A stretch of DNA of 64,000 bases. Origin: a virus. The notes under the pieces were generated by a model. That model worked only from the letters and a program-made list of their open reading frames with translations. It was not told the origin of the DNA and did no database searches. How positions within the stretch are numbered: the first letter of the stretch is position 1; each line of letters starts with the position of its first letter. The position numbers and the translations under genes were made by a program. Shown piece by piece: positions 49,780-64,000 of the stretch. Where the stretch lies: IMG/VR virus record IMGVR_UViG_3300020463_000007, positions 91,566-155,565 of that record; one strand, written 5' to 3'.

Positions 49780-50508
49780 TTAGCCGCTAATCCAATATAG
49801 TTGATGCGTATGTGGTGTAAATTTAGCAGTGGTGCCATCTTTTCTCGCAAAAGTGTTTACATCTGTAACCCCTGTACCAACTGAAGTAGGTGATAAATCA
49901 TCATTCCAACCACCCCATGCTTCCCAGCTTTCTTCATCATAATCACCAAACATGTTAACTGCTTTGTTTGCATAATTAGCACACCAGTTAAAGTATGTAT
50001 CTTTAGACGATTGTATTTGTTCTGCTGTAGGATTTACGGTTCCTGTGCCGCTATGTACCATATTAGAAACAGTTGTGTCCCATTCAGCCTGTAAACGGCT
50101 TGTCATTGTAGCTGAATTTTCATTAGTTTTAAATATATAAGTTGTAATATTTGAATCTACAGTTAGACGTATATGATCAGGACTTGTAGTTTTATCACTT
50201 TGTAAAATATTTGTTATTTTATCCAAGTTTAAAAGCAGACCTGGACCATGAATTACAACGTGTTGTGTATCATCAGTTATATTTTTTGCTAATCGATCAC
50301 CAAATCTAGCGAGACCACTCAAACCTGGTGGCATAATAAAATTGTTAATACCATTTTGTTCATCATTGTGCCGCCATGCTCTCAAAACACCCCATTGTTC
50401 TCTTAGCACGGTTTTTTCACCATATTTTGCAGATAACTTTTCAATTAATTTTGATGCAATAGTACGTATTTCACCAAATCCAAAGCCTACAATAAAATAA
50501 TAATTCAT
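49780..50508 (-). CDS. Hypothetical protein
   Basis: 242-aa ORF with GGAG RBS and minus-strand GATAAATA at 50544-50537. Confidence 0.65.
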   Translation of the reverse strand: MNYYFIVGFGFGEIRTIASKLIEKLSAKYGEKTVLREQWGVLRAWRHNDEQNGINNFIMPPGLSGLARFGDRLAKNITDDTQHVVIHGPGLLLNLDKITNILQSDKTTSPDHIRLTVDSNITTYIFKTNENSATMTSRLQAEWDTTVSNMVHSGTGTVNPTAEQIQSSKDTYFNWCANYANKAVNMFGDYDEESWEAWGGWNDDLSPTSVGTGVTDVNTFARKDGTTAKFTPHTHQLYWISG

Positions 50509-50548: not shown

Positions 50549-51133
50549 TTAGTGTTCTTTACAATTAGGTAGCATTTTTGCTATTTGTTTAATATTATTT
50601 TCGTTAATGTATAAACTCATTAAAATGTGGTATATATCGTCTGCCATTGCGAAACTGCCGTGTGTTTTCCTTGTGTTTAGTATGTATGGAACACCTTCTT
50701 TGAATCTTTGTATGTTTCCGTCATATATAAACATCCATTCGTCATCTGTAGTCTTGTTTAAAGGAATAAAAATACGGAATTGGTCATTCAGTCTAAATGC
50801 ATCTCTGTGCAATCTAAAAAAACTACCTTTGTCCATAGTTGCTACTCTACATCTTGCAAGTTCTGTCCATTTATCAAAAAACTTTATAATACTAGGACAT
50901 TTTAGTAAGTTTTCATTATATGGTTGATTCCTTTGATGCTTAATTTCCGCCGGAGTGTCTAAACCTAAATCTTCAATAGGACCAGTAAGATTAATTGCAG
51001 TTTTTCCATTAGGCCCTGGCAACCAATCCTTTATTTGTTTTAGTTCTGTGATGGTTTTTTCAGAAAATTTATAATCTAATTCTACTACGTCTCCGTATGA
51101 ACAAAGTATACTATGTAAACTCATTACATCCAT
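50549..51133 (-). CDS. Fe(II)/2OG-dependent oxygenase (Asp/Asn beta-hydroxylase-like cupin)
   Basis: RCRVA...LHRD...RIFIPL...LNTRKTHGS: HxD...H facial triad. Confidence 0.75.
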   Translation of the reverse strand: MDVMSLHSILCSYGDVVELDYKFSEKTITELKQIKDWLPGPNGKTAINLTGPIEDLGLDTPAEIKHQRNQPYNENLLKCPSIIKFFDKWTELARCRVATMDKGSFFRLHRDAFRLNDQFRIFIPLNKTTDDEWMFIYDGNIQRFKEGVPYILNTRKTHGSFAMADDIYHILMSLYINENNIKQIAKMLPNCKEH

Positions 51134-51378
51134 TATAAGTCACCCTTGTCTTTCATTTCCCGTTCTAATTTTGCTACATGATGAATACGTTTTATTTGAT
51201 GATACATTTTAAAAATAGTTATTGGACCGTCAGCTTTATACCAACATGGGAAAATTCCATGTATATAAGATTTAATTGCACAGGCTATTAGCTTGTTACT
51301 TTGGTGAACACTATGCGTTAAGTGTTTCCAGTATCCCCATTCTGTTTCTTCTAAATGTTCTTTAATTTTTTTATACAT
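51133..51378 (-). CDS. Small DUF6356-like protein
   Basis: ATG at 51378 after GGAGGA; HL...YWKHL...IHGIFP pattern. Confidence 0.6.
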   Translation of the reverse strand: MYKKIKEHLEETEWGYWKHLTHSVHQSNKLIACAIKSYIHGIFPCWYKADGPITIFKMYHQIKRIHHVAKLEREMKDKGDL

Positions 51379-51994
51379 ATTTCCTCCAACACCATATATG
51401 ACCATCAAAAGTTTTTTTCCAATCTTGACCGTTGTGTTTAAATGTTCTTTTTGTTGAATGTTCAACAATCCATTCTAAATCAACATTCAAATTATTAGTA
51501 AATTCATGAATTCTACTACGTGGCCAAGATCCTATTCCAATCCAAAATCCGTGTTGTTTTCTTCTTTCTTCTAAATTATCTTCTGTTTCTTTTTTATGTC
51601 TCATTATAAGTAAACCGCCTGGCCGTAACCAAGATAACATTTTTTCTATGTTAGGTTTGTGATATTCATCAGGACACTCATGTAAAACTCCTAAACACAA
51701 GACACCGTCTTGACTTTCTAGTTCTATTGGAGCATCTAAAATTTTGCATACATAATCTTGATTACCATAATCAACAAAATCAAATCCTATCAAATTAGGA
51801 AAATACTTTTTATAAGGATTTACTCCACAACCAGCATCAACTATATTTGCATTACATGAAAATATTTCACGTATATCATGTTTTTTAGAGATTTTTGCAT
51901 TGTTTCTTTTTGCACTAAACCTAGATAAATTTTCAGGCAATTTAAAAAATTTTAATCTACTTTGATCAAATTCCTTAAAATCTTGTATATCCAT
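51371..51994 (-). CDS. Class I SAM-dependent methyltransferase
   Basis: IVDAGCG, GFD, DGVLCLGVLHE, LRPGG. Probable start at 51994 (ORF open from 52012). Confidence 0.85.
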   Translation of the reverse strand: MDIQDFKEFDQSRLKFFKLPENLSRFSAKRNNAKISKKHDIREIFSCNANIVDAGCGVNPYKKYFPNLIGFDFVDYGNQDYVCKILDAPIELESQDGVLCLGVLHECPDEYHKPNIEKMLSWLRPGGLLIMRHKKETEDNLEERRKQHGFWIGIGSWPRSRIHEFTNNLNVDLEWIVEHSTKRTFKHNGQDWKKTFDGHIWCWRKYV

Positions 51995-52023
51995 AAAACT
52001 AGTTCCTTGCATGTATTTAACCT

Positions 52024-52377
52024 CTAAAACACTCCCTCAAAAATAAAGTAGTCAACGACAAATGTAAGCTCTGCACCTATAAACACTGATAGGTAGTAAT
52101 TATCTAGCCTATCCCATAGTATCTTTATAATCCACCACGCTATACCAACTCTTAGTGTATATAATACGTTAGCTTGTATAAAATCAGCTAATTCTGGTAA
52201 TGCTTGTGCTTGAAATAGATAAGCAAAAACCCCGCCGTCATATAAAAAACTTAACTGTGCTGATACTAAAACAGCAAATCCGTAAGGTATATACTTGTAT
52301 AAAAACTTAACTATATGAGCAGTTACTAATAATCTATATAATACATAGACTATGTTAGCTACTAATAATTCTAGCAT
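52024..52377 (-). CDS. Small membrane protein with an internal two-fold repeat
   Basis: Highly hydrophobic 117-aa ORF whose two halves are alignable. Confidence 0.7.
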   Translation of the reverse strand: MLELLVANIVYVLYRLLVTAHIVKFLYKYIPYGFAVLVSAQLSFLYDGGVFAYLFQAQALPELADFIQANVLYTLRVGIAWWIIKILWDRLDNYYLSVFIGAELTFVVDYFIFEGVF

Positions 52378-52381
52378 TCAT

Positions 52382-53098
52382 TTATTCCACAGAATAATAG
52401 TGATCTCGTTCATTTAATATTTTATCAGTATCTTCTGTTCTAGTACCTGTTAACTGTAAACTTACTCTTGGACCGTAGCTTGTGTTAGCCGTTGAATGAG
52501 GAGTATTCGGCCAATCAAAAATATGTATTTCTCCAGCTTTCCATCTTTCATACATTCGATTACCATACATATAAAATTGTCCTGGTTCCCAGTCATTTAG
52601 CATGATTGTTATTCTTACTACTTTAGATGGATCCTCAGGATTAAATTGATAAAGTTTGTCTATGTGTAGATTCCAAAGCTGACCTGTGGTTTGTACATGG
52701 ATTCTTTTTTGAAAATTTTCAAGATGGAAATATTCTGCCATCTCATTTATTTTTGTATATTTCTCACAGTTTCTATTAAAGTTAGATACTTCTAAGTCAG
52801 CACTAGCTCCCGCAGATGTAAGATCATATTCTTCTTGTTCTATAAACTTGTCTTTACGTTCGCCTTTTTTACCTCTTGTAGCCCAAGTAACTGGTTTGCT
52901 ATCTTTTATAACTTGTTTTAATTCTTCTTTCCAATCACCATGGAATGTTCCGCATACACGAAACGTTTCACCTTCACCGTCAACTGTGTTCTTATCAAAG
53001 TGGTAATTACTATTACTTTTTGTCCATTCCCAATTACTTTTATAGTCATCAGGATTAGTCAAATATTTCATCTTATCTTTATCAAATTTAAATGCCAT
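52382..53098 (-). CDS. Fe(II)/2OG oxygenase-like cupin (paralogue 1)
   Basis: LHIDK...DWEPGQF...WKAGEIHIFDWPNTPHSTAN...R-x-S: HxD...H triad. Confidence 0.7.
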   Translation of the reverse strand: MAFKFDKDKMKYLTNPDDYKSNWEWTKSNSNYHFDKNTVDGEGETFRVCGTFHGDWKEELKQVIKDSKPVTWATRGKKGERKDKFIEQEEYDLTSAGASADLEVSNFNRNCEKYTKINEMAEYFHLENFQKRIHVQTTGQLWNLHIDKLYQFNPEDPSKVVRITIMLNDWEPGQFYMYGNRMYERWKAGEIHIFDWPNTPHSTANTSYGPRVSLQLTGTRTEDTDKILNERDHYYSVE

Positions 53099-53119
53099 AC
53101 ATATCTACCTTTCTAGTAT

Positions 53120-53530
53120 TTAAGTCTGCAGCTTACCTTCTTTACGCATCTTGGCACGTAATTCTGTAGCACTTATACTATGTATCTCCTTTCCTAAGTC
53201 ATGCTCTGTAAAGGTATATCCTACCCCACGACCATAACTAATATCTACAATATTAGGGACAATCATAATATTGTATTCCCTATAATATTCAAAACCCTCT
53301 TTAGCAAGTTCCTTTTTTATATTATCTTCTACATCAGCCACGATAAATGGATTGTCATCCTGCGTCATTGTACGTCCGCCTGATGCATCTGTGTCTTGCG
53401 GCACAGTTCTAATCATAATACATACTTGTCCTGTTTCAGCTAAAGCACGTTTGAATAATTCAGTATGTCCTTTATGCCAAGGTTGCCAACGTCCTAACAT
53501 TTGTGTTGTAGGCTTAAAAACATTAAACAC
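53120..53530 (-). CDS. HxGH-superfamily nucleotidyltransferase (cytidylyltransferase-like; candidate minimal ATP sulfurylase)
   Basis: GRWQPWHKGH and SISATELR motifs; coupled to the APS kinase gene. Confidence 0.75.
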   Translation of the reverse strand: MFNVFKPTTQMLGRWQPWHKGHTELFKRALAETGQVCIMIRTVPQDTDASGGRTMTQDDNPFIVADVEDNIKKELAKEGFEYYREYNIMIVPNIVDISYGRGVGYTFTEHDLGKEIHSISATELRAKMRKEGKLQT

Positions 53531-53948
53531 TATTTTTCTCCATGTAATTTTTCACTACTTCCATTAATTGTGCATGTGTATCCTCAAACCATTTTGAAAC
53601 ATGATAGTTAACAGTAGTAGGTTTTTCAAACATTTTATTTGTGTCTTCGTATCTACCTTCTTTAATAGTATCCATCCAAACTAGATAATCTGCATCAAAT
53701 TCTTGTCTTGCTCTTTCTGTAGGACAAATAAAATCAGCAACTGCAACTTTTCCTGCACTAACAACACCATCAGCTAGATAACGCATTCTTTGTGCTTGTC
53801 TAACTCTACCTTCTAAACTAAAATCCCAGTCTTTATATTTGTCTCTTACAGCATCTGCATTTATATGAATTGCACCAATTAATTCTGCAAAAGGTTTTGC
53901 CAGCGTGGTTTTACCACTACCAGGCAAGCCAAATATTAATATTTTCAT
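53523..53948 (-). CDS. cysC: Adenylyl-sulfate (APS) kinase-like protein
   Basis: GLPGSGKTTLA P-loop; NADAVR...DFSLEGR...ADFICP...R matches the CysC DGDxxR/LGFS/ISP core. Shorter than cellular CysC. Confidence 0.75.
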   Translation of the reverse strand: MKILIFGLPGSGKTTLAKPFAELIGAIHINADAVRDKYKDWDFSLEGRVRQAQRMRYLADGVVSAGKVAVADFICPTERARQEFDADYLVWMDTIKEGRYEDTNKMFEKPTTVNYHVSKWFEDTHAQLMEVVKNYMEKNSV

Positions 53949-54586
53949 ACTGCGCCTTTCTTGCTACTTGCTAATTGAATTGTTTTATCTAATACCGATT
54001 CTGCTTGTGATATGTATTTCTTATTCGCATCTTTAGATAATATTTCTAATAGTTTAGTATCATCTATGGTTACTTCATTTGGTAACAATCCTAGTTGTTT
54101 TTCTAAAGATTGTAAATATCTTATCTCATACAAGTATAATAACTCTTGACTAGCAAATATTGTTTTATGGCCAAGTATTAGACTATCTAACTGTTTTATA
54201 AAAAACGGTGTTGTATATTTTCCTCTTACACGTTCTTGCTGTAATTTTACAATATTACTATCTCTTCCTATTATAAGTAATTGTATTTTGCAAAACTTTC
54301 TTGCTACTTCTATAAAATTATTATATTCTGGAATAGTTTCTATACCATCATCAAAATAAGGACAGCTAATACTTGTAATAAAATATTTACTTTGTTTCCA
54401 ATCAAATTCATTTAGCTTTGACGGGTCTTTCCAACACTCTGCGAACGGTTCTAAATCATGACCTTCCCAATATTTTTCTTGTAATTTTGGCCATACAAAT
54501 ATATTTTTGTTTTGTCCTAACGCTTTGCTGAATAAATGGTTACCGCTTCCTTGCGGACCAGTCATTATAGTAAGTAAAGGTTTCAA
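53945..54586 (-). CDS. Sulfotransferase-fold P-loop protein
   Basis: IMTGPQGSGNHLFSKAL 5'-PSB-like loop; IIGRD 3'-PB-like motif; adjacent to cysC. Confidence 0.55.
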   Translation of the reverse strand: MKPLLTIMTGPQGSGNHLFSKALGQNKNIFVWPKLQEKYWEGHDLEPFAECWKDPSKLNEFDWKQSKYFITSISCPYFDDGIETIPEYNNFIEVARKFCKIQLLIIGRDSNIVKLQQERVRGKYTTPFFIKQLDSLILGHKTIFASQELLYLYEIRYLQSLEKQLGLLPNEVTIDDTKLLEILSKDANKKYISQAESVLDKTIQLASSKKGAV

Positions 54587-54783
54587 AGTTTACCCCATTT
54601 TATTATATTCCATATACGTTCGTGTACATAAAATACAAACGTGTTAGCAGTAAGTTGTATAATTGCAATAGAACCGCTTATACTAATGTCACGCAATATT
54701 GCGTAACTAATTAAAAATGTGCAAAGTGTACCAGTTAATCTCCATGATACTGTCTTTACGAGACTTCTTACTTTAGTGTCCAT
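54583..54783 (-). CDS. DUF2061-like small membrane protein
   Basis: RSLVKTVSWR...FYVHERIWNIIKWG signature. Confidence 0.8.
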   Translation of the reverse strand: MDTKVRSLVKTVSWRLTGTLCTFLISYAILRDISISGSIAIIQLTANTFVFYVHERIWNIIKWGKL

Positions 54784-55514
54784 ACTGTATCACGCGATCC
54801 ATTAGCAATAATTTCCCTAGTTTTATCTGATTTTAACCCTGTAATCTGTATGCAGGGTCTTGCAAAATTACTTGTGTTAGCGGTTGCGTGTGGCACATTA
54901 GGCCAATCAAATATATGAGCTTCTCCGGCTTTCCATCTTTCATAGATAAAATTACCATACATATAGAACTGTCCTGGTTGCCAATCATCTAAGAAAAATG
55001 TAATACGACATACTTGTTCAGGATCTTCTATGCATCTATCCCAAAGTTTGTCAATGTGTAAGTTAAACATTTGACCTGTAAGTTGAACATGGGCACGATA
55101 TTTTAATTCGTCCTTACCACCCACTACGCCAAAGTGTTCTTTCATTTTAACAAGCATAGGATAATCCTCTAACTCATCTTTCATATTTGTAAGCATAAGT
55201 TTTTTAGGATCACCTCCTCCTTGTATAATATCATATTCTTCTTGTTTCAACATTGGAGATGCATCTTCTTTATGTCCGAAGAATTTTCTTGTTTCCCAAT
55301 TGATAGCTTTAGTTGCATTTTCAACTAATCTATCTCTATCTATTTTCCATAACTCAGGATTATCAAATCGGCCTAAAACTTTAACCCATTCGCCTTCCTT
55401 GTCTTGAATATTATTATCAAAATGATATTCACTGTGTGCTACAGTCCAATCCCAATTACTTTTGTAATTGTCTGCAGGTTCTAAAGTTTTAGTCCAATTT
55501 GTTTTGTGCATCAT
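54768..55514 (-). CDS. Fe(II)/2OG oxygenase-like cupin (paralogue 2)
   Basis: LHIDK...DWQPGQFYMYGN...WKAGEAHIFDWPNVPHATAN; closely similar to 52382-53098. Confidence 0.7.
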   Translation of the reverse strand: MMHKTNWTKTLEPADNYKSNWDWTVAHSEYHFDNNIQDKEGEWVKVLGRFDNPELWKIDRDRLVENATKAINWETRKFFGHKEDASPMLKQEEYDIIQGGGDPKKLMLTNMKDELEDYPMLVKMKEHFGVVGGKDELKYRAHVQLTGQMFNLHIDKLWDRCIEDPEQVCRITFFLDDWQPGQFYMYGNFIYERWKAGEAHIFDWPNVPHATANTSNFARPCIQITGLKSDKTREIIANGSRDTVWTLK

Positions 55515-57019
55515 ACGTAATCAAGTCCTTTATCTTTTCTAACTAAACTGTTTATAAATATTCCTAATGCAACAACGATACATATAAGGAATATAGGATG
55601 GTTATATATGTTAAATAATTCAAACCACCTAAAGTCGGACATTGAACTTAATCCTGGTTTCCATTGTTTATAACCATAAATCTGCAATGTACCCCAAAAG
55701 TATTCATCTATCTTAAAAGCTACAACGTATGCAACTAGAATTGCTGGTCTACTAATGTTCCACATTTTACATAAGACTCCTATAGCACTTAAGATAGCAA
55801 GTAAAGCTAAATCTTCCCAACCACCTGTGTATTGCATATTAGCATAAATGATTACTGCTAAAATAAAAGTAGCGTAAATCCAAAAAGGCACTTCTAATAT
55901 TTTAAGTATATACTTGTATAAAAATATACTTAATAATGCAACACCAATAGTCCCAAAAATATAACCAAATGCTAAACTATTTGTAAATTGTATATCATCT
56001 AATAGACTTGGTGTACCAATCTCCATACCGAAATACATACATATTGCCATTACCATTGCGGCAAAAGGTGCAGCTGGTATTCCAAACAAACATGCAGGAA
56101 TCATACTAGATACCTTTTGTGCATTGTTTGCTCCTTCACACCCTAATAATCCTACAGGGTTACCTTCACCAAAAGGAACTTCTTGATCTTTTTCTTTATG
56201 TGCGGCCTTTGTGGCACCGTATGCTAAGAAGTCACCTACTGCGCCTCCTACACCTGGTAATAAACCAGTAACGAAGCCAATCAACCCACCACGTATCATA
56301 TCACGCCAGTGTGTTTTTACATCACGGAAGCCTTGGAAAAGACCTGTCCAATAACTTCCATTTATTGGTGGTGCTGCGGATTTTAATTTTCTTCTAAATC
56401 CATCTAATAATTCTGGTACTCCAAACAGGCCTGATAGTAAAACTACCATTCCTATTCCATTTTGCAAATATTCCCAACCAAATGTTAGTCTAGGATTACT
56501 TACAACATCTTCACCAACCATACCTACTGCTAGTCCGAATATGATTGCACATATACTTAAAAATACATTTTTACTTGCCACAAAGCCTACACAGGCTAGT
56601 GCCATTGTCATGAAGCCCAGAAACTCTGGACGTCCGAATAATACTATAATCTTCCCATAATAAGGAAGTAAAAAGAATGTTAGTGCCGCAAATACAACTC
56701 CGTTAAAAGTAGAGTCAGCAATAGCAATACCCATTGCTCTTGAGGCTTGGCCTTTTTTCGCCATAGGATAACCATCTATAACACAGGCCGCGGTTGTACT
56801 TGCTCCTGGTATGCCTGTAAGAATACTTGTATAACTATCTGCACTTGCACAACTTGCTACTATTGCAGTAAGAAAGACTAACCCCAAATAGGGGTCAGCC
56901 ATAAAGTATGCTCCCATGCTAAAGACAGTTATCAGGGCAGTAGTTACACCTGCAATAGGTATAATACCAACTAGCATTCCATACATGGTGCCAATTAATG
57001 CCCAGATAACATAGTCCAT
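55511..57019 (-). CDS. tctA: Tripartite tricarboxylate transporter large membrane subunit
   Basis: About 500-aa polytopic protein with GIIP...GIPG...DGYPMAKKG, GLLPGVGG, EGANNA and FGIPA TctA signatures. Confidence 0.9.
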   Translation of the reverse strand: MDYVIWALIGTMYGMLVGIIPIAGVTTALITVFSMGAYFMADPYLGLVFLTAIVASCASADSYTSILTGIPGASTTAACVIDGYPMAKKGQASRAMGIAIADSTFNGVVFAALTFFLLPYYGKIIVLFGRPEFLGFMTMALACVGFVASKNVFLSICAIIFGLAVGMVGEDVVSNPRLTFGWEYLQNGIGMVVLLSGLFGVPELLDGFRRKLKSAAPPINGSYWTGLFQGFRDVKTHWRDMIRGGLIGFVTGLLPGVGGAVGDFLAYGATKAAHKEKDQEVPFGEGNPVGLLGCEGANNAQKVSSMIPACLFGIPAAPFAAMVMAICMYFGMEIGTPSLLDDIQFTNSLAFGYIFGTIGVALLSIFLYKYILKILEVPFWIYATFILAVIIYANMQYTGGWEDLALLAILSAIGVLCKMWNISRPAILVAYVVAFKIDEYFWGTLQIYGYKQWKPGLSSMSDFRWFELFNIYNHPIFLICIVVALGIFINSLVRKDKGLDYV

Positions 57020-57030
57020 AGGTTAATCCT

Positions 57031-58086: not shown

Positions 58087-58236
58087 AATGTTATATCTCC
58101 TTTAGTTTATACTACATCATTATTAAATTTTTAAGTTTCAGAGTTGATCCTTAAATATTGCATATAACATAAGTAATTATATGATGCGGATAAAAAAATT
58201 TTTAAAAGTGAATCTTTTTTTATTATTGCATACATT

Positions 58237-58242
58237 TATTTA
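58237..58242 (-). promoter_or_regulatory. Putative late promoter core (TAAATA) upstream of tctC
   Basis: Minus-strand CTAAATA in the divergent intergenic region; short AT-rich motif, so chance occurrence is possible. Confidence 0.4.
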
Positions 58243-58262
58243 GCAAAAAGGAGAAATTTTTT

Positions 58263-59000
58263 ATGAACACTCGAATTTTTAGTTTAATAGACGAAAATTT
58301 AAAGAACTCCTTCAATTTACCTAAATATGACAATATTAATGAACAGATTACAGAAAATACACATATAGGTTCGTTACCTTGGTCACCAGCTAGACTACGC
58401 AAGTTTAAAGACAGTATTACATCTAAGTTACAGCTTGACGTAGAAAGCGTTGATGTGACAGTTAAAGAACTTGTAGCTGATCTTGACAAAAAATATATGC
58501 ATAGGTTCTTTGGGGAGATATGGCAACCTAAGACTGAAATATATCAATACAGTGGTTGGGCTTTAGTTGATGCAATAAACAATGCAAATCCAAAAGCAGT
58601 ACTAGACTTTGGCTGTGGATATCATCCATTTAAAAATAGAATAAAAAATCTAATTGGTATTGACCCTTTTAATAATAGTGCAGACTATATGGTTGACATA
58701 TTAGAATTTGCTGTAGAACCTGAAAGTTATGACCATATTATTGTATTTGGTAGCCTTAACTTCGGCGATAGAAATGACATTGATAAAAGGTTTGAAAAAC
58801 TAGTTGAAATACTAATGCCAGGAGGCAGAATGTATTTTAGAGCCAATCCAGGTCACTTGTGGCCTAAAGGTCCTTATGTTGATATTTTTCCTTGGTCATT
58901 CGAAGTAGCGTATGAACAAGCAAAAGTACACAATCTTGAATTAGAAAAGTTTAAAAAAGACAACGGCGACAGACTATACTTTGAATTTTACAAGCCATAG
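58263..59000 (+). CDS. Class I methyltransferase with an N-terminal ACP-like helical domain
   Basis: VLDFGCG, GIDP, YDHIIVFGSLNFG, LMPGG; about 80 N-terminal residues resemble an acyl-carrier fold. Confidence 0.75.
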   Translation: MNTRIFSLIDENLKNSFNLPKYDNINEQITENTHIGSLPWSPARLRKFKDSITSKLQLDVESVDVTVKELVADLDKKYMHRFFGEIWQPKTEIYQYSGWALVDAINNANPKAVLDFGCGYHPFKNRIKNLIGIDPFNNSADYMVDILEFAVEPESYDHIIVFGSLNFGDRNDIDKRFEKLVEILMPGGRMYFRANPGHLWPKGPYVDIFPWSFEVAYEQAKVHNLELEKFKKDNGDRLYFEFYKP

Positions 59001-59011
59001 GAAACAAAAAT

Positions 59012-59719
59012 ATGTATGATGAAAGTAAACTTATATTCTTTACCGGTGCTCCGGGAAGCAAATGGAGTGCAGTATCGAATGTAATATCAAAAAATACAAT
59101 TATGCCTATAAACATATCTGATCATAGAGATGACAGAGTGTATACGCATACAAGATCTCCAGTTCAACATTTAGGTGCATATTGGGGTCCTGGCCAAGAA
59201 CACGGACAAAAATTTGATCAACTCGAAACATTAACAAAAGAACAAATAATTCAAGAGATAGATGGGCCGTATGCCGATAAAACTTGGGATACTCATAGAA
59301 TTATCAAATGCCATCATTTTTCTTTGCAATTAGATTACATAAGAAAAACTTTTCCATTAGCAAAAATAATAATTGTGCTTCGAACTGAAATAAAAAATTT
59401 CAGAGGCTGGAAAGGTGCCGGCGGCTTTGAGTCTATTGATTATCCAGATTATCATACATATTATAAAAATTATGATCTACTCAAAGAAAAAATATTTGAA
59501 GAAGTAGCCGCGGCAAATAATTGGGTAGGCGAAAATAAGTTAAGAGTTAATGTTTGTGATAGACACTATTTTAAAGAACGTTGGGGTTTAGAATCTAAAG
59601 AAGATTATGATTGGTTGGATTTTTATATTTCTTCTATAGAGAAAAGCCAACCAAAAGAAGTCAACAACTTTAATGGCAGATATGTTCTTGATGTAAATAT
59701 TTGTGAATACAATTTTTAG
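59012..59719 (+). CDS. Sulfotransferase-fold protein (paralogue 1)
   Basis: FFTGAPGSKWS loop, IIKCHHF catalytic-His motif, FPLAKIIIVLR 3'-PB-like motif. Confidence 0.6.
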   Translation: MYDESKLIFFTGAPGSKWSAVSNVISKNTIMPINISDHRDDRVYTHTRSPVQHLGAYWGPGQEHGQKFDQLETLTKEQIIQEIDGPYADKTWDTHRIIKCHHFSLQLDYIRKTFPLAKIIIVLRTEIKNFRGWKGAGGFESIDYPDYHTYYKNYDLLKEKIFEEVAAANNWVGENKLRVNVCDRHYFKERWGLESKEDYDWLDFYISSIEKSQPKEVNNFNGRYVLDVNICEYNF

Positions 59720-59727
59720 GAGAACAA

Positions 59728-60699
59728 ATGGAAAAAAATTATGCTGATGATGCAAATAAAATTTTAAAAAAATCTATCGAAGGTGATAAAGATAATGTGA
59801 ATTACTATTCCGGTGATCGTGTGCAAGATCTTGTGCCAGATAAAGTACCACAAGTTGAAGAAGGTGTGAATATTAATGATAGTAATTACCAAGATGATAT
59901 GTATTCAGAGGAACAACTAGAACGTCATAAAAAATCTAACATGAATGTGTACACCGTAGACGGAATTCCTAGTAGATGGTACCATAATAAACTAAGATCA
60001 ACTTGGCATTTTGATCCAAAAGCAGATCCACAAGAAAAAACATTTACAGTGATGTGTAAATTTAAAGGAGATTGGGAAGCTGGAGTACAAAGAGCTTTAA
60101 GAAAATGTAAAGAACATACTATTGGAAACTATAGGCCAAGAAATTCTAGCCAGCAAGATAAAGATTTACATGAAGGCGAAATGATGGATATAAAACGTGC
60201 ATCAGGTAAGGATGATGTGTCTTGTATGTACCATCACCAAATAGCACATAATGAAAAAAGAGATACACATCCTGATTCTGCTGTTTTTTTTAGAATGCTA
60301 GAAGCAGTCGGCATGTATGACGTACATCAATCACGAATACACATACAACGTCTAGGAGAAGTAACTCCTTTTCATATTGATCAACAGATGAGATACGCAA
60401 GGCCAGAATGGAGAGAAAAATGGATTGCGGCAGGTGCTGACAAAAATCCACTTATGTTACGTAGGATACTAATAGCTTTAACACCCTGGGATTATGGACA
60501 TGTATGGCAGTTTGGTAACACATATTATCAAGGTTATGACGCAGGTGAATGTGTTGTTTATGACTGGTGTAATATGCCGCATGCGGCTTCTAACATGGGC
60601 TACACACCAAGAATAACTTTACAAGCTACTGGATTTATAAATGAAAAGTTTACTAATTTAATGAACAACGGATCGAAAGAGCACATTATAAATGTCTGA
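59728..60699 (+). CDS. Fe(II)/2OG oxygenase-like cupin (paralogue 3)
   Basis: WHFD, RIHIQ, FHID, WDYGHVWQFGN, GECVVYDWCNMPHAASN...RITLQATG. Confidence 0.7.
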   Translation: MEKNYADDANKILKKSIEGDKDNVNYYSGDRVQDLVPDKVPQVEEGVNINDSNYQDDMYSEEQLERHKKSNMNVYTVDGIPSRWYHNKLRSTWHFDPKADPQEKTFTVMCKFKGDWEAGVQRALRKCKEHTIGNYRPRNSSQQDKDLHEGEMMDIKRASGKDDVSCMYHHQIAHNEKRDTHPDSAVFFRMLEAVGMYDVHQSRIHIQRLGEVTPFHIDQQMRYARPEWREKWIAAGADKNPLMLRRILIALTPWDYGHVWQFGNTYYQGYDAGECVVYDWCNMPHAASNMGYTPRITLQATGFINEKFTNLMNNGSKEHIINV

Positions 60700-61489
60700 T
60701 GAACCTATAAGGCCTAGAAAAACAAAAGGACAACAACCTAAAATTCGTAAACAGATTTTTAACGAACCTCACACTATAGATCTATGGAATGGTAAGGATA
60801 CTGAAGAAAATAGTAAACCTTGGGTAGGCGGAAGAGGTCGTGATTTATTTACTGCACACGTTGCTCAAAAAGAAGCCGTTAAAAAACATATAGAATATAG
60901 ATGGAATAGTTTAGGACTCAGGGGACCTGAACCAAATTACAAAGCAAATAAAAAAATTATATTTGGTGGCGGAAGTTTATGTTTAGGAAATGGTGTAAAT
61001 GTAGAAGAAAGTTTTCCCCACATTGTTGCAACAAGTTTAAATGCATCTTATATGAATTTAAGTCCAGCTGATACTCTAACTGATCTTATAGACCCATTAA
61101 TAGAATTTAAAAACTTTGAACCCGATTATATTATTTTAAATGACACAAGATTCTTTCAAAATTATGGTTGGGCATTACGTCAAATATATAAAATGAAAAA
61201 ATTAGAACAAGATGAAGGTTATAAAAAACATTTTACTAATTCTGATATAGATTGTTTAAAATTATTTGACTACTTTTTAAAAGGTTTGTTTCCGAATGCA
61301 AAATTTATTCTTGCATATTGTGAAAGGAGAGCATGGAAATCTATAATTCCAAACTTGAATAATATATATAAAGTACCGTTTGAAGCAAAAGAAACTGTAG
61401 TTGATTTAGCAAGAGATGGATTTCATCCAGGAGTTGAATCACACAAAATTATGGCAGAAATGATTCTAAAAGGAATAAACAATGTATGA
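60692..61489 (+). CDS. SGNH/GDSL hydrolase-like protein
   Basis: NSLGLRG, GGSLCLG (block I Ser), RDGFHPG (DxxH). Confidence 0.65.
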   Translation: MSDEPIRPRKTKGQQPKIRKQIFNEPHTIDLWNGKDTEENSKPWVGGRGRDLFTAHVAQKEAVKKHIEYRWNSLGLRGPEPNYKANKKIIFGGGSLCLGNGVNVEESFPHIVATSLNASYMNLSPADTLTDLIDPLIEFKNFEPDYIILNDTRFFQNYGWALRQIYKMKKLEQDEGYKKHFTNSDIDCLKLFDYFLKGLFPNAKFILAYCERRAWKSIIPNLNNIYKVPFEAKETVVDLARDGFHPGVESHKIMAEMILKGINNV

Positions 61490-62216
61490 AGATTACACAG
61501 GTAAAGATTTAATAATAGCAACAGGTGCTCCAGGAAGCAGATGGAGTGGAACATTGCGTATGATAACATGTAATACAGATATTAATATATCTGACGAAAC
61601 ACCTGATAGGATATATGATCATATAGCAGTCAATCCTAAAACAGGAGCAGAACAAGCTAGAGGATGGCATAGAGGAGCATATTGGGGACCTGATCATGAA
61701 TTTGGAAGCAAGTTTGATGTTATTAACACACTAACTAAAGAAGAAATTGTAGAAGAATTTAAAAAACCATTTGGAAATTGGGAACCTGGCAAAAAAATAA
61801 TTAAAAGCCATTGGTTTGCTTATCATCTGCCATTTCTAAAAGAAATGTTTCCAGATGCTAAGTTTATAGGTGTACAGCGTAGTAACACTGGCTGTTTTGA
61901 ATGGTGGCATGTGTGCGGCGGTTGGGACATTTCATATCCGCATTACTTTTGGTATAAGGACGATGATCGTATGCGTGAACAAATAGCTAAAGAAAATGCT
62001 TGCATTACACAGTTTTTCCCAGACAGGAAAAATCATACCATTGAAGAAATATTTTTAGCATTAGGTCTTCCTAATAAAATAGTTAAGTATAAAGAGTTTC
62101 TTGAAAGAGATGACAAACTTGCAGAAGTATTAGATGATAAAAATAGTGCAAAAAGTGATGACTATCGTCCAGCTTTAGACTTTGTTGTAGGCAAAGTTTT
62201 AACAGGTATTCTGTAA
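61482..62216 (+). CDS. Sulfotransferase-fold protein (paralogue 2)
   Basis: ATGAPGSRWS, HRGAYWGP, IIKSHWF, FPDAKFIGVQR; paralogous to 59012-59719. Confidence 0.6.
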   Translation: MYEDYTGKDLIIATGAPGSRWSGTLRMITCNTDINISDETPDRIYDHIAVNPKTGAEQARGWHRGAYWGPDHEFGSKFDVINTLTKEEIVEEFKKPFGNWEPGKKIIKSHWFAYHLPFLKEMFPDAKFIGVQRSNTGCFEWWHVCGGWDISYPHYFWYKDDDRMREQIAKENACITQFFPDRKNHTIEEIFLALGLPNKIVKYKEFLERDDKLAEVLDDKNSAKSDDYRPALDFVVGKVLTGIL

Positions 62217-62936
62217 TCGTTCTTTATAATATAAGATAGGAAAATAACCTAGTTGCGGCATCTTATAATGTAAGTGTACCTTATCTCCTGTAGAAAACCA
62301 ATCATCGTGTATACAAATATCACCTTTAACAAGTAATTCGTCTGTCTTGTAATCAATTTGATAACAACAATTTAAATTTTCACCCATTATAGGTAAACCA
62401 CCAGGCGCCCATTCTGCATGTCTATCAACATACTTTAATGTTTCAAAAGTTGTGTTTATTGCACATGGACCTATTTCGCTCATACCCCAATTAGCTATTA
62501 CTGTTGCACCTTTGCTAACAAATTTACGAATGTGATCCCATGGAATAATATCACTGCCCATTGCAATAACTTTACCGTTAAAATTAGCATCTTTAAAACC
62601 TTTTGTTTTTATTAATGCTTCACACATTGCTGGGGGCAAAAAAGTATGTGTATATTTTTCAAAGTCTTTAATAAAACTAAAAGGATTAAATTTTGTTATA
62701 AAAATATCACAACCTAATGTATATGCAGGTAAACTCTGTAAAAGTAAACCTCCTGCATGAGTCATTCTTGTACATGTAAATATTTTGCTTTGTGATGTAA
62801 TATATTGATCTTTTATAGCGACAGAATTACATGCTTCTAAATTTTTTGGACTACGAAATATCTGTTTAGGTGTGCCTGTGGTCCCACTACTTGATATAGT
62901 GCAACCTTCTTTTAATATTTTTTTGAAGTCTGTCAT
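62199..62936 (-). CDS. Truncated adenylate-forming (ANL/AMP-binding) enzyme
   Basis: SSGTTGTPK P-loop, THAGG, WGMSE, ELLVKG, WFSTGD; only 245 aa. Confidence 0.8.
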   Translation of the reverse strand: MTDFKKILKEGCTISSSGTTGTPKQIFRSPKNLEACNSVAIKDQYITSQSKIFTCTRMTHAGGLLLQSLPAYTLGCDIFITKFNPFSFIKDFEKYTHTFLPPAMCEALIKTKGFKDANFNGKVIAMGSDIIPWDHIRKFVSKGATVIANWGMSEIGPCAINTTFETLKYVDRHAEWAPGGLPIMGENLNCCYQIDYKTDELLVKGDICIHDDWFSTGDKVHLHYKMPQLGYFPILYYKERLQNTC

Positions 62937-63769
62937 AATTCAGTAGCATACTCAGTTTTTTTCTTTTCATATTGTGCAATTAAAAATTCTGTGACTACAC
63001 CTGTTTTATCAGTTGCTGTAATACCACCACTTGAACTAGTAATAAAAACTTCATCAGCAGATTCAAAAAAATCTGCACTTATAGGCATGCGTTTGAATGT
63101 AGAACCATTTTCATTTGCAATGTCTTCAACAACACTCATTGTTATACCTTTGAGTACATTTTTATCAGATGTCATTATAATTTTATCTTTAACAATACCA
63201 ACATTAAATCCAGGACCTTCAGTTATAAATCCGTTAGTGTCAACTAAAACAGTTGTGTCATAATTACTTGGCTTGTTACGCTGACTCATTGTAAGTTCAA
63301 TCCAAGCCATATTTTTATATGTCTGCCCATAATAATCATCATTTACACGTTTTGTATCTCTATCTAAAAATAGTTTTACTTGTGGTGTACTTGCTATAGG
63401 GTAACTTGGTTTTATGTACATTGCAAAATTTACAGGGCAATTTTCTAAGTCTCTTGGATTTCCACTAGGTGGATAACCACGCCATATTAAAAACCATACA
63501 AATGCATTTTCAATAGGATTGCGTTTAGCTAATTCTTTAATAATCTTTAGAGGATCTACGTCTGGAATTGCAAGGCCGTATCTTTCTGCACTATTCTTAA
63601 ATCTTTGTAAATGTCTTTCATAACAAAATGCTTTGCCGTTATATACTGGCATTACATCATATGTTGCATCGCAATGAATAAATCCAAAATCTAAAATTGT
63701 TGGACCTATTTGTCCTAACGGCTTATATTCTCCATTTTTATATGCTATTAAATCTAATACATTAGTCAT
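62933..63769 (-). CDS. PLP-dependent class IV aminotransferase (BCAT/DAAT/ADC-lyase fold)
   Basis: DFGFIHCDATYD, HLQRF..SA, catalytic Lys in TYKNM, ITEGPGFN, LKGIT, ADEVFITSS. Confidence 0.9.
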   Translation of the reverse strand: MTNVLDLIAYKNGEYKPLGQIGPTILDFGFIHCDATYDVMPVYNGKAFCYERHLQRFKNSAERYGLAIPDVDPLKIIKELAKRNPIENAFVWFLIWRGYPPSGNPRDLENCPVNFAMYIKPSYPIASTPQVKLFLDRDTKRVNDDYYGQTYKNMAWIELTMSQRNKPSNYDTTVLVDTNGFITEGPGFNVGIVKDKIIMTSDKNVLKGITMSVVEDIANENGSTFKRMPISADFFESADEVFITSSSGGITATDKTGVVTEFLIAQYEKKKTEYATEL

Positions 63770-64000
63770 CAAACTTTACCTTTTTAAGTTGTGGATCATC
63801 TGGTAATTTTTTCTTTAATTCTTTTAATCTGTTTATACGCCATTCTAATAATTTAAAATCAAGTATCCAAGGAAAAAAAGCATGTATCAAACTGCCTAAG
63901 CATACAAAAAGCAAGAAAAAGAATTCGTTTATTGCGAGCCTGAAGTGCCAAAAATAACCAGCATCGGGTCTACCTGCTTTTGTTTTTGCTTCATTTAAAT
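63762..64000 (-). CDS. DUF6356-like small protein, start outside the window
   Basis: Not in the ORF track. Manual translation: LNEAKTKAGRPDAGYFWHFRLAINEFFFLLFVCLGSLIHAFFPWILD...KVKFDD*; Y-x-x-H...IHAFFP as in 51133-51378. Confidence 0.6.
   Translation of the reverse strand, partial: LNEAKTKAGRPDAGYFWHFRLAINEFFFLLFVCLGSLIHAFFPWILDFKLLEWRINRLKELKKKLPDDPQLKKVKFDD

What the first reader, a model, noticed from the sequence alone, without database searches (positions are those of the whole stretch)
50549..64000. Candidate phage-encoded biosynthetic/modification pathway: import, adenylation, amination, hydroxylation, methylation, sulfation
Seen: a tightly packed island encoding TctC/TctA, an HxGH nucleotidyltransferase, an APS kinase, three sulfotransferase-fold proteins, four HxD...H oxygenases, two methyltransferases (one with an ACP-like domain), an SGNH protein, an ANL adenylating enzyme and a class IV aminotransferase. 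Known: this enzyme set is what tailoring clusters for sulfated metabolites or glycans use. Inference: a phage pathway that imports a carboxylate or sulfonate, activates and tailors it, and transfers it or sulfate to a target (virion glycans, host envelope, DNA or a small molecule). I know of no characterised phage system with this composition, but I cannot search to confirm that.
Basis: partly seen in the sequence, partly recalled or inferred. Interest (0 to 1): 0.88.

Follow-up and report, generated by a model that had tools for sequence, protein, structure and literature searches.

The report
Phage transporter island with tailoring enzymes
An uncultured ~340-kb marine phage carries its own two-part nutrient importer, kept next to hydroxylating, methylating and sulfotransferase-like enzymes in dozens of related phages; what it imports and makes is unknown, and only the core, not the whole 13-kb island, behaves as one unit.

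Summary
The island is real, tightly packed and lies in the variable tail-fibre region of a jumbo T4-like myovirus. A complete relative is 342.6 kb.

**Confirmed**
- TctA.
- A divergent but genuine TctC-family binding protein.
- Three paralogous Fe(II)/2OG oxygenases.
- Three sulfotransferase-fold proteins.
- An APS-kinase-like kinase.
- An HxGH nucleotidyltransferase.
- Two SAM methyltransferases.
- A class IV aminotransferase.

**Weaker or wrong**
- The "ANL enzyme" is a 245-aa core fragment.
- The SGNH call rests on motifs and one weak hit.
- The fourth oxygenase and the ACP-like domain are unsupported.

**Conservation**
Across 38 related viral loci (five of them in MAG bins), the core order is methyltransferase, TctC, TctA, oxygenase, sulfotransferase-fold, often followed by kinase and nucleotidyltransferase. 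This order holds down to about 40% identity. The ANL, aminotransferase and SGNH genes and the extra sulfotransferase-like copies are accessories of a few close relatives.

**Kinase and nucleotidyltransferase**
This pair is usually one fused protein, with thousands of copies in metagenomes. It also stands alone in cultured Xylella and Stenotrophomonas phages.

**Verdict**
This is a conserved phage import-and-tailor core with swappable cassettes. It is not shown to be a single sulfation pathway. The substrate is unknown. No cultured phage and no paper I found has the module. This scan had already noted it in at least 37 other genomes.

The parts
57031..58086 (-). Periplasmic binding protein with a signal peptide. 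It is a divergent member of the TctC/Bug family and belongs to a virus-specific subfamily.
   Evidence: hhalign A4 vs A7 gives 100% probability, E 5e-53. A7 matches solved TctC/Bug proteins at 1e-21. 13 of 34 A7 members match Pfam TctC. More than 1000 unnamed homologs exist. Present in 36 of 39 loci.
55511..57019 (-). TctA permease (502 aa) with one extra C-terminal transmembrane helix beyond the Pfam domain.
   Evidence: Pfam TctA 1e-85. 77-100% identical across marine loci and about 40% in distant ones. Hydropathy.
54768..55514 (-). Fe(II)/2-oxoglutarate oxygenase of the core. Its start overlaps the tctA stop by 4 nt.
   Evidence: AF2 pLDDT 86. Foldseek E 5e-6. VIA Z 12.8 to proline 3-hydroxylase and ~11.5 to PHD2. 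H153 and D155 are invariant; H209 and R219 are conserved in at least 90% of sequences.
54583..54783 (-). Small membrane protein (DUF2061, 66 aa).
   Evidence: Pfam 2.8e-19. Present in 11 loci. It alternates with two other small hydrophobic proteins.
53945..54586 (-). Sulfotransferase-fold protein of the core, with a non-canonical GPQGSGNH loop.
   Evidence: AF2 pLDDT 85. Foldseek top hits are TPST1/2, E 2e-4. In the VIA wide search the top 14 are all sulfotransferases. Present in 30 loci and single-copy in the complete genome.
53523..53948 (-). APS-kinase-like P-loop kinase (141 aa) with a shortened lid.
   Evidence: Pfam APS_kinase 33 bits, above the 21.1 cut-off. Shares the D, R, F, R, R and F..P motifs with E. 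coli CysC. NCBIfam apsK models score far below their cut-offs.
53120..53530 (-). HxGH nucleotidyltransferase (136 aa), closest to archaeal NMN adenylyltransferases. It overlaps the kinase gene by 8 nt.
   Evidence: Usually fused to the kinase elsewhere: 3186 longer proteins, and fused in L038.
52382..53098 (-). Second Fe(II)/2OG oxygenase paralog.
   Evidence: 46% identical to 54768-55514, with the same conserved residues.
52024..52377 (-). 117-aa hydrophobic protein of unknown function.
   Evidence: No family match. Present in 9 loci. Hydropathy.
51371..52012 (-). Class I SAM methyltransferase and a distant paralog of 58263-59000.
   Evidence: Weak Methyltransf_11/25 hits. DxGCG motif.
51133..51468 (-). 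DUF6356 small protein. Its true start is probably internal.
   Evidence: Pfam 3.5e-11. Homologs are 81-91 aa.
50549..51133 (-). 194-aa protein of unknown function.
   Evidence: No Pfam, NCBIfam, PDB or hhalign support. Found only in the window, L001 and L023/L031.
49780..50508 (-). 242-aa Thr/Gly-rich protein of unknown function. It is the last gene of the minus-strand array.
58087..58262 (.). 176-nt AT-rich divergent intergenic region between the two arrays.
   Evidence: Sequence. The promoter scan was not informative.
58263..59000 (+). SAM methyltransferase of the core family. It sits next to the binding-protein gene in most loci.
   Evidence: Family present in 28 loci. D115, G117, C118 and G119 are invariant.
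59012..59719 (+). Accessory sulfotransferase-like protein.
   Evidence: GAPGS(K/R)WS, KxH and R motifs. The family gives weak Sulfotransfer_3 hits in 7 of 11 members.
59728..60699 (+). Third Fe(II)/2OG oxygenase paralog, with an ~80-aa N-terminal extension.
60692..61489 (+). SGNH/GDSL-like protein (weak call).
   Evidence: NCBIfam GDSL 7.8e-4. GGSL, ND and DxxH motifs are visible.
61482..62216 (+). Accessory sulfotransferase-like protein, a paralog of 59012-59719.
   Evidence: Sulfotransfer_3 1.3e-3..
62199..62936 (-). Minimal ANL-superfamily core (245 aa). It lacks the N-terminal ~150 residues and the C-terminal domain.
   Evidence: AMP-binding 7e-16, profile positions 170-377. Aligns to residues ~150-350 of acyl-CoA synthetases. 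A 247-aa homolog at 51% identity is in L023/L030.
62933..63772 (-). Class IV (D-amino-acid / branched-chain) aminotransferase.
   Evidence: Pfam 7e-35. NCBIfam 1e-23. Found only in the window and L001.
63762..63998 (-). 5'-truncated small DUF6356-like gene, cut by the contig end.
   Evidence: The full 85-aa form is in L036; DUF6356 2e-4.

Best explanation
The island is a composite in the variable tail-fibre region of a ~340-kb jumbo myovirus.

**Core**
The core is an old, virus-specific "import-and-tailor" module with these parts:
- a secreted TctC-family binding protein plus a TctA permease, with no TctB;
- a translationally coupled prolyl-hydroxylase-like Fe(II)/2OG oxygenase;
- a sulfotransferase-fold protein;
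- a SAM methyltransferase beside them;
- often an APS-kinase-like kinase with an HxGH nucleotidyltransferase.

**Proposed mechanism**
- During infection the phage installs its own high-affinity importer in the host envelope. This step is inferred.
- The importer probably brings in an organic acid, as every characterised TTT system does. This step is also inferred.
- The cytoplasmic enzymes then hydroxylate, methylate and possibly sulfate that solute or a target that depends on it.
- The kinase and nucleotidyltransferase would supply a 3'-phospho-adenylyl donor, with PAPS the leading candidate. This is inferred from fold, motifs and gene fusion.

**Accessories**
The extra oxygenase, two sulfotransferase-like genes, the SGNH-like gene, the mini-ANL and the aminotransferase are lineage-specific cassettes added to this core.
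For: **Families and folds**
These are documented.

**Co-conservation**
- In 39 loci the counts are: binding protein and TctA 36, oxygenase 31, sulfotransferase-fold 30, methyltransferase 28, kinase/nucleotidyltransferase 16.
- Locus L038 keeps the whole order at 34-60% identity, with kinase and nucleotidyltransferase fused.
- The oxygenase and the core sulfotransferase-fold families are single-copy in the complete 342.6-kb genome and occur only in the module.
- The genes overlap or are nearly contiguous.

**Virus specificity**
- The binding-protein family occurs in only 5 of 185,579 species genomes. All five are short MAG contigs; three of them (L038-L040) also carry other genes of this phage lineage.

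**Kinase and nucleotidyltransferase**
- 3186 longer proteins contain the nucleotidyltransferase. Most are 250-290 aa and carry an APS_kinase domain.
- The kinase keeps CysC's APS-binding motifs.

**Binding protein against TctA**
- The complex prediction gives weak support only: score 0.53, best of 3 controls 0.00.
- That mark was reached by 58 of 80 solved complexes and 2 of 110 mismatched pairs.
- At 0.60 or under it was reached by only 7 of those 80, and by both mismatches that passed.
- The runs agree in at least 56% of contacts, and the partner's pLDDT is at least 82.

**Presence in other samples**
- The island occurs at ~100% identity in DNA runs of two studies.
Against: - No substrate is identified.
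- The core sulfotransferase-fold family has Gln where sulfotransferases have the catalytic Lys/Arg (PQGSGNH). The accessory family has the basic residue out of register.
- The nucleotidyltransferase is closest to NMN adenylyltransferases (1e-6). It matches ATP sulfurylase only at 0.066.
- No ATP sulfurylase or PAPS reductase is encoded.
- The fused kinase-nucleotidyltransferase stands alone among early or nucleotide-metabolism genes in cultured Sano-type phages. It therefore does not need the module.
- Many loci have the core without it within 10 kb.
- The region is hypervariable, so some linkage could reflect a shared insertion hotspot.
- The best structural matches of both core enzymes include protein-modifying enzymes (PHD2, AspH, TPST). 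This fits protein rather than small-molecule substrates.
Confidence: 0.55

Rival explanations
1. The transporter is a stand-alone nutrient-uptake gene, like cyanophage pstS. It would import a carboxylate such as 2-oxoglutarate or another TCA-cycle acid for energy or as oxygenase co-substrate. The neighbouring enzymes would instead modify proteins: virion fibres or host proteins, by hydroxylation, tyrosine-type sulfation and methylation. They sit together only because this is the phage's variable tail-fibre region.
For: - The best structural matches are protein or amino-acid hydroxylases (proline 3-hydroxylase, PHD2, AspH, viral collagen P4H) and tyrosylprotein sulfotransferases.
- The island lies between tail-fibre genes: a tail collar at 30010-32034, and an Mtd_N fibre just beyond the window in L036.
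- A radical SAM/SPASM cassette lies next door.
- PrmA-like methyltransferases occur in other loci.
- Such variable clusters are described for pelagi- and cyanomyophages (PMC7029224).
Against: - The oxygenase start overlaps the tctA stop, and the order is kept at about 40% identity. This is tighter than hotspot co-location would predict.
- No Tyr-rich or collagen-like protein is in or next to the island.
- The two core enzyme families occur nowhere else in the complete genome.
Confidence: 0.27
2. The island is a self-contained PAPS-dependent sulfation pathway for host-envelope or virion glycans. The nucleotidyltransferase acts as a minimal ATP sulfurylase, the kinase makes PAPS, and the three sulfotransferase-fold proteins sulfate a sugar or lipid. 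The transporter would import sulfate, a sulfonate or the acceptor.
For: - An APS-kinase-like gene lies directly after a sulfotransferase-fold gene in at least 13 loci.
- The kinase-nucleotidyltransferase fusion has the same domain logic as PAPS synthase.
- CysC motifs are kept.
- ATP sulfurylase also uses an HxxH nucleotidyltransferase fold (established knowledge).
- The genome elsewhere carries heptose-pathway genes, according to an earlier scan note that I did not check.
Against: - No glycosyltransferase or sugar-nucleotide gene is in the island.
- The 5'-phosphosulfate-loop residues are non-canonical.
- The nucleotidyltransferase resembles NMN adenylyltransferases, not ATP sulfurylase.
- The fusion occurs in phages that have no sulfotransferase.
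- Characterised TTT systems carry organic acids, not sulfate.
Confidence: 0.15
3. The region is cellular DNA: a mis-binned or chimeric host fragment, or a recent host-derived island that is not a phage feature.
For: - TctA is a typical bacterial family.
- Five relatives lie in MAG bins.
Against: - The flanks are phage baseplate and fibre genes on one contig.
- 33 IMG/VR contigs carry the module, including a complete genome with terminal repeats.
- Independent DNA runs hold it at ~100% identity.
- The MAG contigs are short, and three of them carry other genes of this phage lineage.
- The binding-protein clusters are 99-100% viral in the Atlas.
Confidence: 0.02

Closest known systems
Tripartite tricarboxylate transporters (TTT, TC 2.A.80): Salmonella TctCBA, Bordetella BctCBA and the Bug binding proteins, TphC, AdpC, MatC
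   Same: - A TctA permease next to a secreted TctC-family binding protein.
- The binding protein keeps the N-terminal IVP..PG.GT loop region of the family.
   Different: - No TctB anywhere in the complete phage genome.
- The binding protein is too divergent for Pfam TctC and forms a virus-only subfamily.
- It is encoded by a lytic-type jumbo phage and fused into an operon with tailoring enzymes.
- The substrate is unknown.
Phage and virus nutrient-uptake genes, such as cyanophage pstS (own knowledge)
   Same: A virus supplies a periplasmic binding protein or transporter, apparently to boost uptake during infection.
   Different: - Here both the binding protein and the permease are viral.
- The family is TTT rather than an ABC system.
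- Viral tctA has been reported only as a domain hit of unknown role (PMC4164917).
Bifunctional PAPS synthase (APS kinase + ATP sulfurylase). Analogous pairs are CoA synthase (PPAT + dephospho-CoA kinase) and NadR (NMN adenylyltransferase + ribosylnicotinamide kinase).
   Same: - A P-loop kinase with APS-kinase motifs is joined to an HxGH nucleotidyltransferase. They are usually one ~265-aa protein.
- In the fused form the kinase is N-terminal, as in animal PAPS synthase.
   Different: - The nucleotidyltransferase has 136 aa, against more than 200 for ATP sulfurylase, and is closest to NMN adenylyltransferases.
- The kinase lid is shortened.
- Activity is untested.
- The pair is split into two overlapping genes in this window.
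Host recognition cluster / hypervariable islands of pelagimyophages and cyanomyophages (PMC7029224)
   Same: A large non-syntenic island within the structural region, beside tail-fibre genes. It carries radical SAM cassettes, transport genes and envelope-modifying auxiliary genes.
   Different: - This phage belongs to a different lineage of ~340 kb. Its nearest cultured relatives are PA5oct, Phosso and Atu_ph07, at 43-49% SbcC identity.
- That paper does not mention a TTT transporter, tricarboxylate or sulfotransferases.
Sulfotransferases of natural-product tailoring clusters (StaL, the olefin synthase/CurM ST domain) and tyrosylprotein sulfotransferases
   Same: Same fold. These are the top structural matches of the core sulfotransferase-fold protein.
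   Different: - 10-15% identity.
- Gln replaces the catalytic Lys/Arg in the 5'-phosphosulfate loop.
- No acceptor is known.

Membership tests
TTT transporter (TctCBA) | TctA large permease subunit | tested here: met
   Pfam TctA 1.1e-85, covering profile positions 2-422 of 423.
TTT transporter (TctCBA) | TctC/Bug-type periplasmic binding protein | tested here: met
   No direct Pfam hit. The link is transitive: hhalign to distant relatives gives 100% probability, E 5e-53. Those relatives hit solved Bug/TctC proteins at 1e-21 and Pfam TctC in 13 of 34 members. A signal peptide is present.
TTT transporter (TctCBA) | TctB small 4-TM subunit | tested here: not met
   No PF07331 match at E up to 10 in G000, G001 or the complete G005. 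Small hydrophobic proteins in the module (DUF2061, a 117-aa protein and a 74-aa family) could substitute, but this is untested.
TTT transporter (TctCBA) | Binding protein docks on TctA and delivers a carboxylate | tested here: inconclusive
   The complex prediction gives weak support: 0.53 against a best control of 0.00. The caveats are given in the For line. The ligand was not tested.
Fe(II)/2-oxoglutarate oxygenase | Double-stranded beta-helix fold | tested here: met
   AF2 pLDDT 86. Foldseek gives 212 matches at E up to 1e-3, led by 2OG oxygenases. VIA Z 12.8, rmsd 3.1, 152 residues aligned to proline 3-hydroxylase.
Fe(II)/2-oxoglutarate oxygenase | HxD/E...H iron triad and a basic residue for the 2OG C5 carboxylate | tested here: met
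   H153 and D155 are invariant. H209 and R219 are conserved in at least 90% of 15 sequences. Their placement in the active site was not inspected in 3D.
PAPS-dependent sulfotransferase | Sulfotransferase fold | tested here: met
   For the core protein, the top 14 of 48,161 PDB representatives are sulfotransferases (Z 8.9-11.2, 164-184 residues aligned). P-loop kinases score 8.7 or less. The accessory family has only weak Sulfotransfer_3 hits, best 2.7e-4, in 7 of 11 members.
PAPS-dependent sulfotransferase | 5'-phosphosulfate-binding loop with a catalytic Lys/Arg (PKxGTT type) | tested here: not met
   The core family has an invariant GPQGSGNH loop, with Gln at that place. The accessory family has GAPGS(R/K)WS, with the basic residue two positions later. 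The register was judged from sequence, not from a superposition.
PAPS-dependent sulfotransferase | Binds PAPS and transfers sulfate | not testable with these tools
   Needs a biochemical assay.
APS kinase (CysC) | Family profile match | tested here: inconclusive
   Pfam APS_kinase scores 33 bits, above the 21.1 cut-off, but AAA_33 scores alike. NCBIfam apsK scores 27.7 bits against a cut-off of 138.7. Only residues 3-84 align.
APS kinase (CysC) | P-loop, DGDxxR, GFSxxDR..RR and FISP motifs | tested here: met
   P-loop, D32, R35, F43, R48, R54, F73, P76 and R81 are invariant in an alignment that includes E. coli CysC. The lid region is about 19 residues shorter.
ATP sulfurylase | Family profile match | tested here: not met
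   PF01747 is absent from all three genomes at E up to 0.1. The nucleotidyltransferase hits sopT only at 0.066, over the HxxH motif.
ANL adenylate-forming enzyme | Core motifs A3 (SGTTGxPK), A5 and A7 | tested here: met
   SSGTTGTPK, GMSE and STGD are visible. AMP-binding 7e-16.
ANL adenylate-forming enzyme | Complete N-terminal domain and C-terminal domain with the A10 lysine | tested here: not met
   The protein is 245 aa and aligns only to residues ~150-350 of ~500-aa enzymes. The same short length is kept in a 51%-identical homolog.
Class IV aminotransferase | Family profile and catalytic Lys/Glu motifs | tested here: met
   Pfam 6.8e-35, 121 bits against a cut-off of 28.5. The YKN and TEGPGFN motifs are present. 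Below the NCBIfam equivalog cut-offs, so the substrate class is open.
Single biosynthetic gene cluster (one pathway) | All genes co-inherited across relatives | tested here: not met
   Only the core is co-inherited. The ANL, aminotransferase, SGNH and the 194- and 242-aa genes occur in 2-4 loci. The accessory sulfotransferase-like copies lie elsewhere in the complete genome.

The most novel reading that the evidence does not exclude
The ~265-aa kinase-nucleotidyltransferase, split in this window, would be a minimal synthase for PAPS or another 3'-phospho-adenylyl donor. It is found in thousands of uncultured phages.

Together with the virus-only TctC/TctA importer, the oxygenase, the methyltransferase and the sulfotransferase-fold enzymes, it would let jumbo phages take up an environmental organic acid and convert it into a hydroxylated, methylated, sulfated product of their own. 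That would be a virus-encoded small-molecule pathway with its own uptake system.
Probability: 0.2. Interest if true: 0.85.

Novelty: new variant of a known kind. Interest (0 to 1): 0.6.

Why it matters
- Phage auxiliary genes are usually single enzymes that patch host metabolism. Here a whole importer is viral. It is among the best-conserved genes of the region, at 77-100% identity. It is also hard-wired to tailoring enzymes in many uncultured aquatic phages.
- Scale: the word-index search found 1079 binding-protein homologs. The exhaustive profile search found 612 clusters at 50% identity.
- If the ligand were found, it would name a compound that these phages need during infection.
- It would also give the first function for three large virus-only protein families.
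- It would test whether a TTT system can work without TctB.
- The fused kinase-nucleotidyltransferase is a separate, easily testable enzyme. It occurs in cultured Xylella and Stenotrophomonas phages.

Tried and rejected
- **DNA search.** Megablast of the island against 50,697 phage records found nothing.
- **TctA in cultured phages.** tblastn found only unannotated fragments or bacterial records, at 23-30% identity.
- **Direct TctC evidence.** Direct evidence for the binding protein failed:
  - no Pfam hit for it or for 21 close relatives;
  - PF03401 is not found in the genome at E up to 10;
  - its profile against the PDB gave Bug proteins only at E 0.13-1.7.
  The chain through distant relatives was needed to settle this.
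- **Sulfotransferase-fold families.** Profiles of both families gave no PDB sequence match. hhalign between the two families was not significant, at 11% probability.
- **Oxygenase sequence searches.** The oxygenase profile against the PDB gave only AtsK at E 0.19. I do not use this as evidence for a TauD-type desulfonation role. Homolog searches and the Atlas fold search returned only unnamed viral proteins.
- **Fourth oxygenase.** 50549-51133 has no support from hhalign or the PDB.
- **ACP-like domain.** The candidate Ser in the methyltransferase is not conserved.
- **Promoters and terminators.** Sigma-70 promoter and terminator scans were at chance level. The T4 late motif TATAAATA is rarer than chance, 2 matches against 14.5 expected. 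No statement on timing is possible.
- **NAD-salvage reading of the kinase pair.** No NAMPT is encoded. An NMN/NR route is not excluded.
- **Tyr-rich or collagen-like target nearby.** None was found.
- **Transcription.** Contigs from two RNA libraries of one study match at 90-97% over about 58.8-62.7 kb, over parts of tctA and over 50.9-51.4 kb. They come from a relative, and DNA carry-over is not excluded. This is only a hint.
- **Host.** The host was not identified.

Full report
**Context**

The window is the last 64 kb of a 155.6-kb IMG/VR record, so the island is cut by the contig end. It carries a gp25 baseplate wedge, a gp5-type OB domain, a tail-collar fibre and SbcCD, plus a 5186-aa ORF.

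A relative that carries the same module is a 342,607-bp genome with direct terminal repeats, rated 100% complete. The nearest cultured phages by SbcC are the jumbo phages PA5oct, Phosso and Atu_ph07, at 43-49% identity.

In the close relative L001/L036 the island ends about 1.5 kb beyond the window. There it meets two unknown genes and an Mtd_N-type fibre gene. Upstream lies a cassette of four radical SAM/SPASM genes at 41114-46938.

The setting resembles the variable "host recognition cluster" described for pelagi- and cyanomyophages (PMC7029224).

**The observation**

The genes form three arrays:
- 13 genes on the minus strand, from 58086 down to 49780;
- 5 genes on the plus strand, 58263-62216;
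- 3 genes on the minus strand, 63998-62199.

Most junctions overlap or leave under 25 nt.

Clear family matches:
- TctA, 1e-85.
- Class IV aminotransferase, 7e-35.
- AMP-binding, 7e-16, but only profile positions 170-377 in a 245-aa protein.
- APS_kinase, 33 bits against a cut-off of 21.1.
- DUF2061 and DUF6356.

Weak matches:
- CTP_transf_like and Methyltransf.
- Sulfotransfer_3.
- GDSL.

Ten ORFs had no Pfam or NCBIfam match.

**Unnamed proteins**

*Oxygenases.*
- 54768-55514, 52382-53098 and the C-terminal two thirds of 59728-60699 are paralogs.
- H153 and D155 are invariant. H209 and R219 are conserved in at least 90% of sequences.
- The AlphaFold model has pLDDT 86.
- It matches Fe(II)/2OG oxygenases: Foldseek E 5e-6, and VIA Z 12.8 to proline 3-hydroxylase and about 11.5 to PHD2.

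*Core sulfotransferase-fold protein.*
- The model of 53945-54586 has pLDDT 85.
- It matches sulfotransferases first. TPST1/2 lead in Foldseek.
- In an exhaustive comparison with 48,161 PDB representatives, the top 14 are all sulfotransferases (Z 8.9-11.2). P-loop kinases follow at 8.7 or less.

*Accessory sulfotransferase-like proteins.*
- 59012-59719 and 61482-62216 are paralogs with GAPGS(R/K)WS, KxH and Arg motifs.
- 7 of 11 family members give weak Sulfotransfer_3 hits.
- Neither family has the canonical catalytic Lys/Arg in the 5'-phosphosulfate loop.

*Binding protein.*
- 57031-58086 gave no direct TctC match.
- Its profile found 612 representative clusters.
- It aligns to its distant members at 100% probability, E 5e-53.
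- Those members match solved Bug/TctC proteins at 1e-21 to 1e-14, and Pfam TctC in 13 of 34.
- Language-model features agree.
- A complex prediction with TctA gave weak support: 0.53 against a best control of 0.00.
- No TctB is encoded, even in the complete genome.

*Unsupported claims.*
- The ACP-like domain is unsupported.

**Co-conservation**

A TctA search of IMG/VR gave 33 loci. A search of 185,579 species genomes with the binding-protein profile gave only five short MAG contigs. Three of them also carry other genes of this phage lineage.

I clustered all ORFs of 39 loci:

| Family | Loci |
|---|---|
| Binding protein and TctA | 36 |
| Oxygenase | 31 |
| Core sulfotransferase-fold | 30 |
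| Methyltransferase | 28 |
| Kinase / nucleotidyltransferase | 16 |
| Accessory sulfotransferase-like | 16 |

- The usual order is methyltransferase, binding protein, TctA, oxygenase, (DUF2061), sulfotransferase-fold, (kinase, nucleotidyltransferase).
- Locus L038 keeps it all at 34-60% identity.
- In the complete genome the oxygenase and core sulfotransferase-fold families occur once, in the module. The accessory family has three copies elsewhere.
- The mini-ANL, SGNH-like, 194-aa and 242-aa genes occur only in the window, L001 and L023/L030/L031. The aminotransferase occurs only in the window and L001.
- Other loci carry different neighbours: an MTA/SAH-nucleosidase-like protein, HIT, a class 3 lipase, a Trp-dioxygenase fragment, another 2OG oxygenase and a PrmA-like methyltransferase.

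So there is a conserved core with swappable cassettes.

**Kinase and nucleotidyltransferase**

- The two genes overlap by 8 nt here and are fused in L038.
- Searching longer proteins with the nucleotidyltransferase gave 3186 hits. The best are nearly all 250-290 aa and carry an APS_kinase domain.
- The kinase shares its P-loop, D32, R35, F43, R48, R54, F73 and P76 with E. coli CysC, and has a shorter lid.
- The nucleotidyltransferase is closest to archaeal NMN adenylyltransferases (1e-6). It is hardly like ATP sulfurylase (0.066).
- The genomes encode no ATP sulfurylase, PAPS reductase or NAMPT.
- The fused protein also occurs in cultured Xylella, Stenotrophomonas and Xanthomonas phages. There it sits among early genes, with no transporter or sulfotransferase nearby.
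- It is therefore an autonomous unit that is often recruited to the module.
- PAPS synthesis is a reasonable reading, because a 3'-kinase plus an adenylyltransferase sit next to sulfotransferase folds. It is still unproven.

**Reading**

*Best supported, about 0.55.*
- The phage makes its own TTT-type importer.
- The linked oxygenase, sulfotransferase-fold protein and methyltransferase act on the imported organic acid, or on a target that depends on it.
- What is shown: the families, the folds, the linkage and the restriction to viruses.
- What is inferred: import, the nature of the ligand and all the chemistry.

*Main rival, about 0.27.*
- The transporter is a plain nutrient gene.
- The enzymes tailor proteins, as their best structural matches suggest.

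*Third reading, about 0.15.*
- A self-contained glycan sulfation pathway.

*Rejected.*
- Cellular contamination.

**Prior knowledge**

- No cultured phage carries TctA, the binding protein's partner enzymes or the core sulfotransferase-fold protein.
- Among the papers searched, viral tctA appears only as a domain hit of unknown role (PMC4164917).
- Earlier notes of this scan describe the same module in at least 37 other genomes. One follow-up there reached the same "several modules" verdict. I treated these as leads and tested them here.

**Other data**

- The island is present at about 100% identity in DNA runs of two studies.
- Contigs of a relative appear in two metatranscriptome libraries of one study. 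This is only a hint of expression.

Noticed in passing
window 53120-53948; proteins P0241-P0360; locus L072 5992-6729: The APS-kinase-like domain and the HxGH nucleotidyltransferase are normally one ~265-aa protein. There are 3186 metagenomic hits, and some are named adenylylsulfate kinase by JGI. Cultured Xylella phage Sano gp35 ('kinase') and Stenotrophomonas and Xanthomonas phages carry it. It is an uncharacterised bifunctional enzyme that can be tested in cultured systems.
   Followed up: partly
window 41114-46938: Four consecutive radical SAM genes. In the last two, a SPASM-type Cys-rich domain lies N-terminal to the radical SAM domain. This family co-occurs with the transporter module in 17 loci.
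   Followed up: partly
window 13807-29367: A single 5186-aa ORF directly after a 1204-aa ORF in the baseplate and fibre region. It was not analysed.
   Followed up: no
window 54583-54783 and 52024-52377; L004 13989-14213: Almost every locus has at least one small hydrophobic protein in the module: DUF2061 (66 aa), a 117-aa protein, or a 74-aa family. They alternate between loci and could stand in for the missing TctB.
   Followed up: partly
L038-L042 (MAG contigs): Contigs binned as Chitinophagales, Polynucleobacter, Weeksellaceae, Terrimicrobiaceae and Omnitrophota carry this module. Three of them (L038-L040) also share other genes with the jumbo phage genome. They are probably mis-binned phage fragments, some from fresh water.
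   Followed up: partly
L006 5407-5931; L002 13514-14673: Next to the module in other loci lie a 174-aa fragment of tryptophan 2,3-dioxygenase (Pfam 1.5e-43) and an overlapping pair of an MTA/SAH-nucleosidase-like phosphorylase and a HIT protein.
   Followed up: no
L036 17129-18523: Just beyond the window's end, the close relative has a fibre protein with a major tropism determinant (Mtd) N-terminal domain. No reverse transcriptase was looked for.
   Followed up: no
window 62199-62936: The minimal 245-aa ANL core keeps its length in a 51%-identical homolog. It is therefore a conserved short form and not a broken gene.
   Followed up: partly
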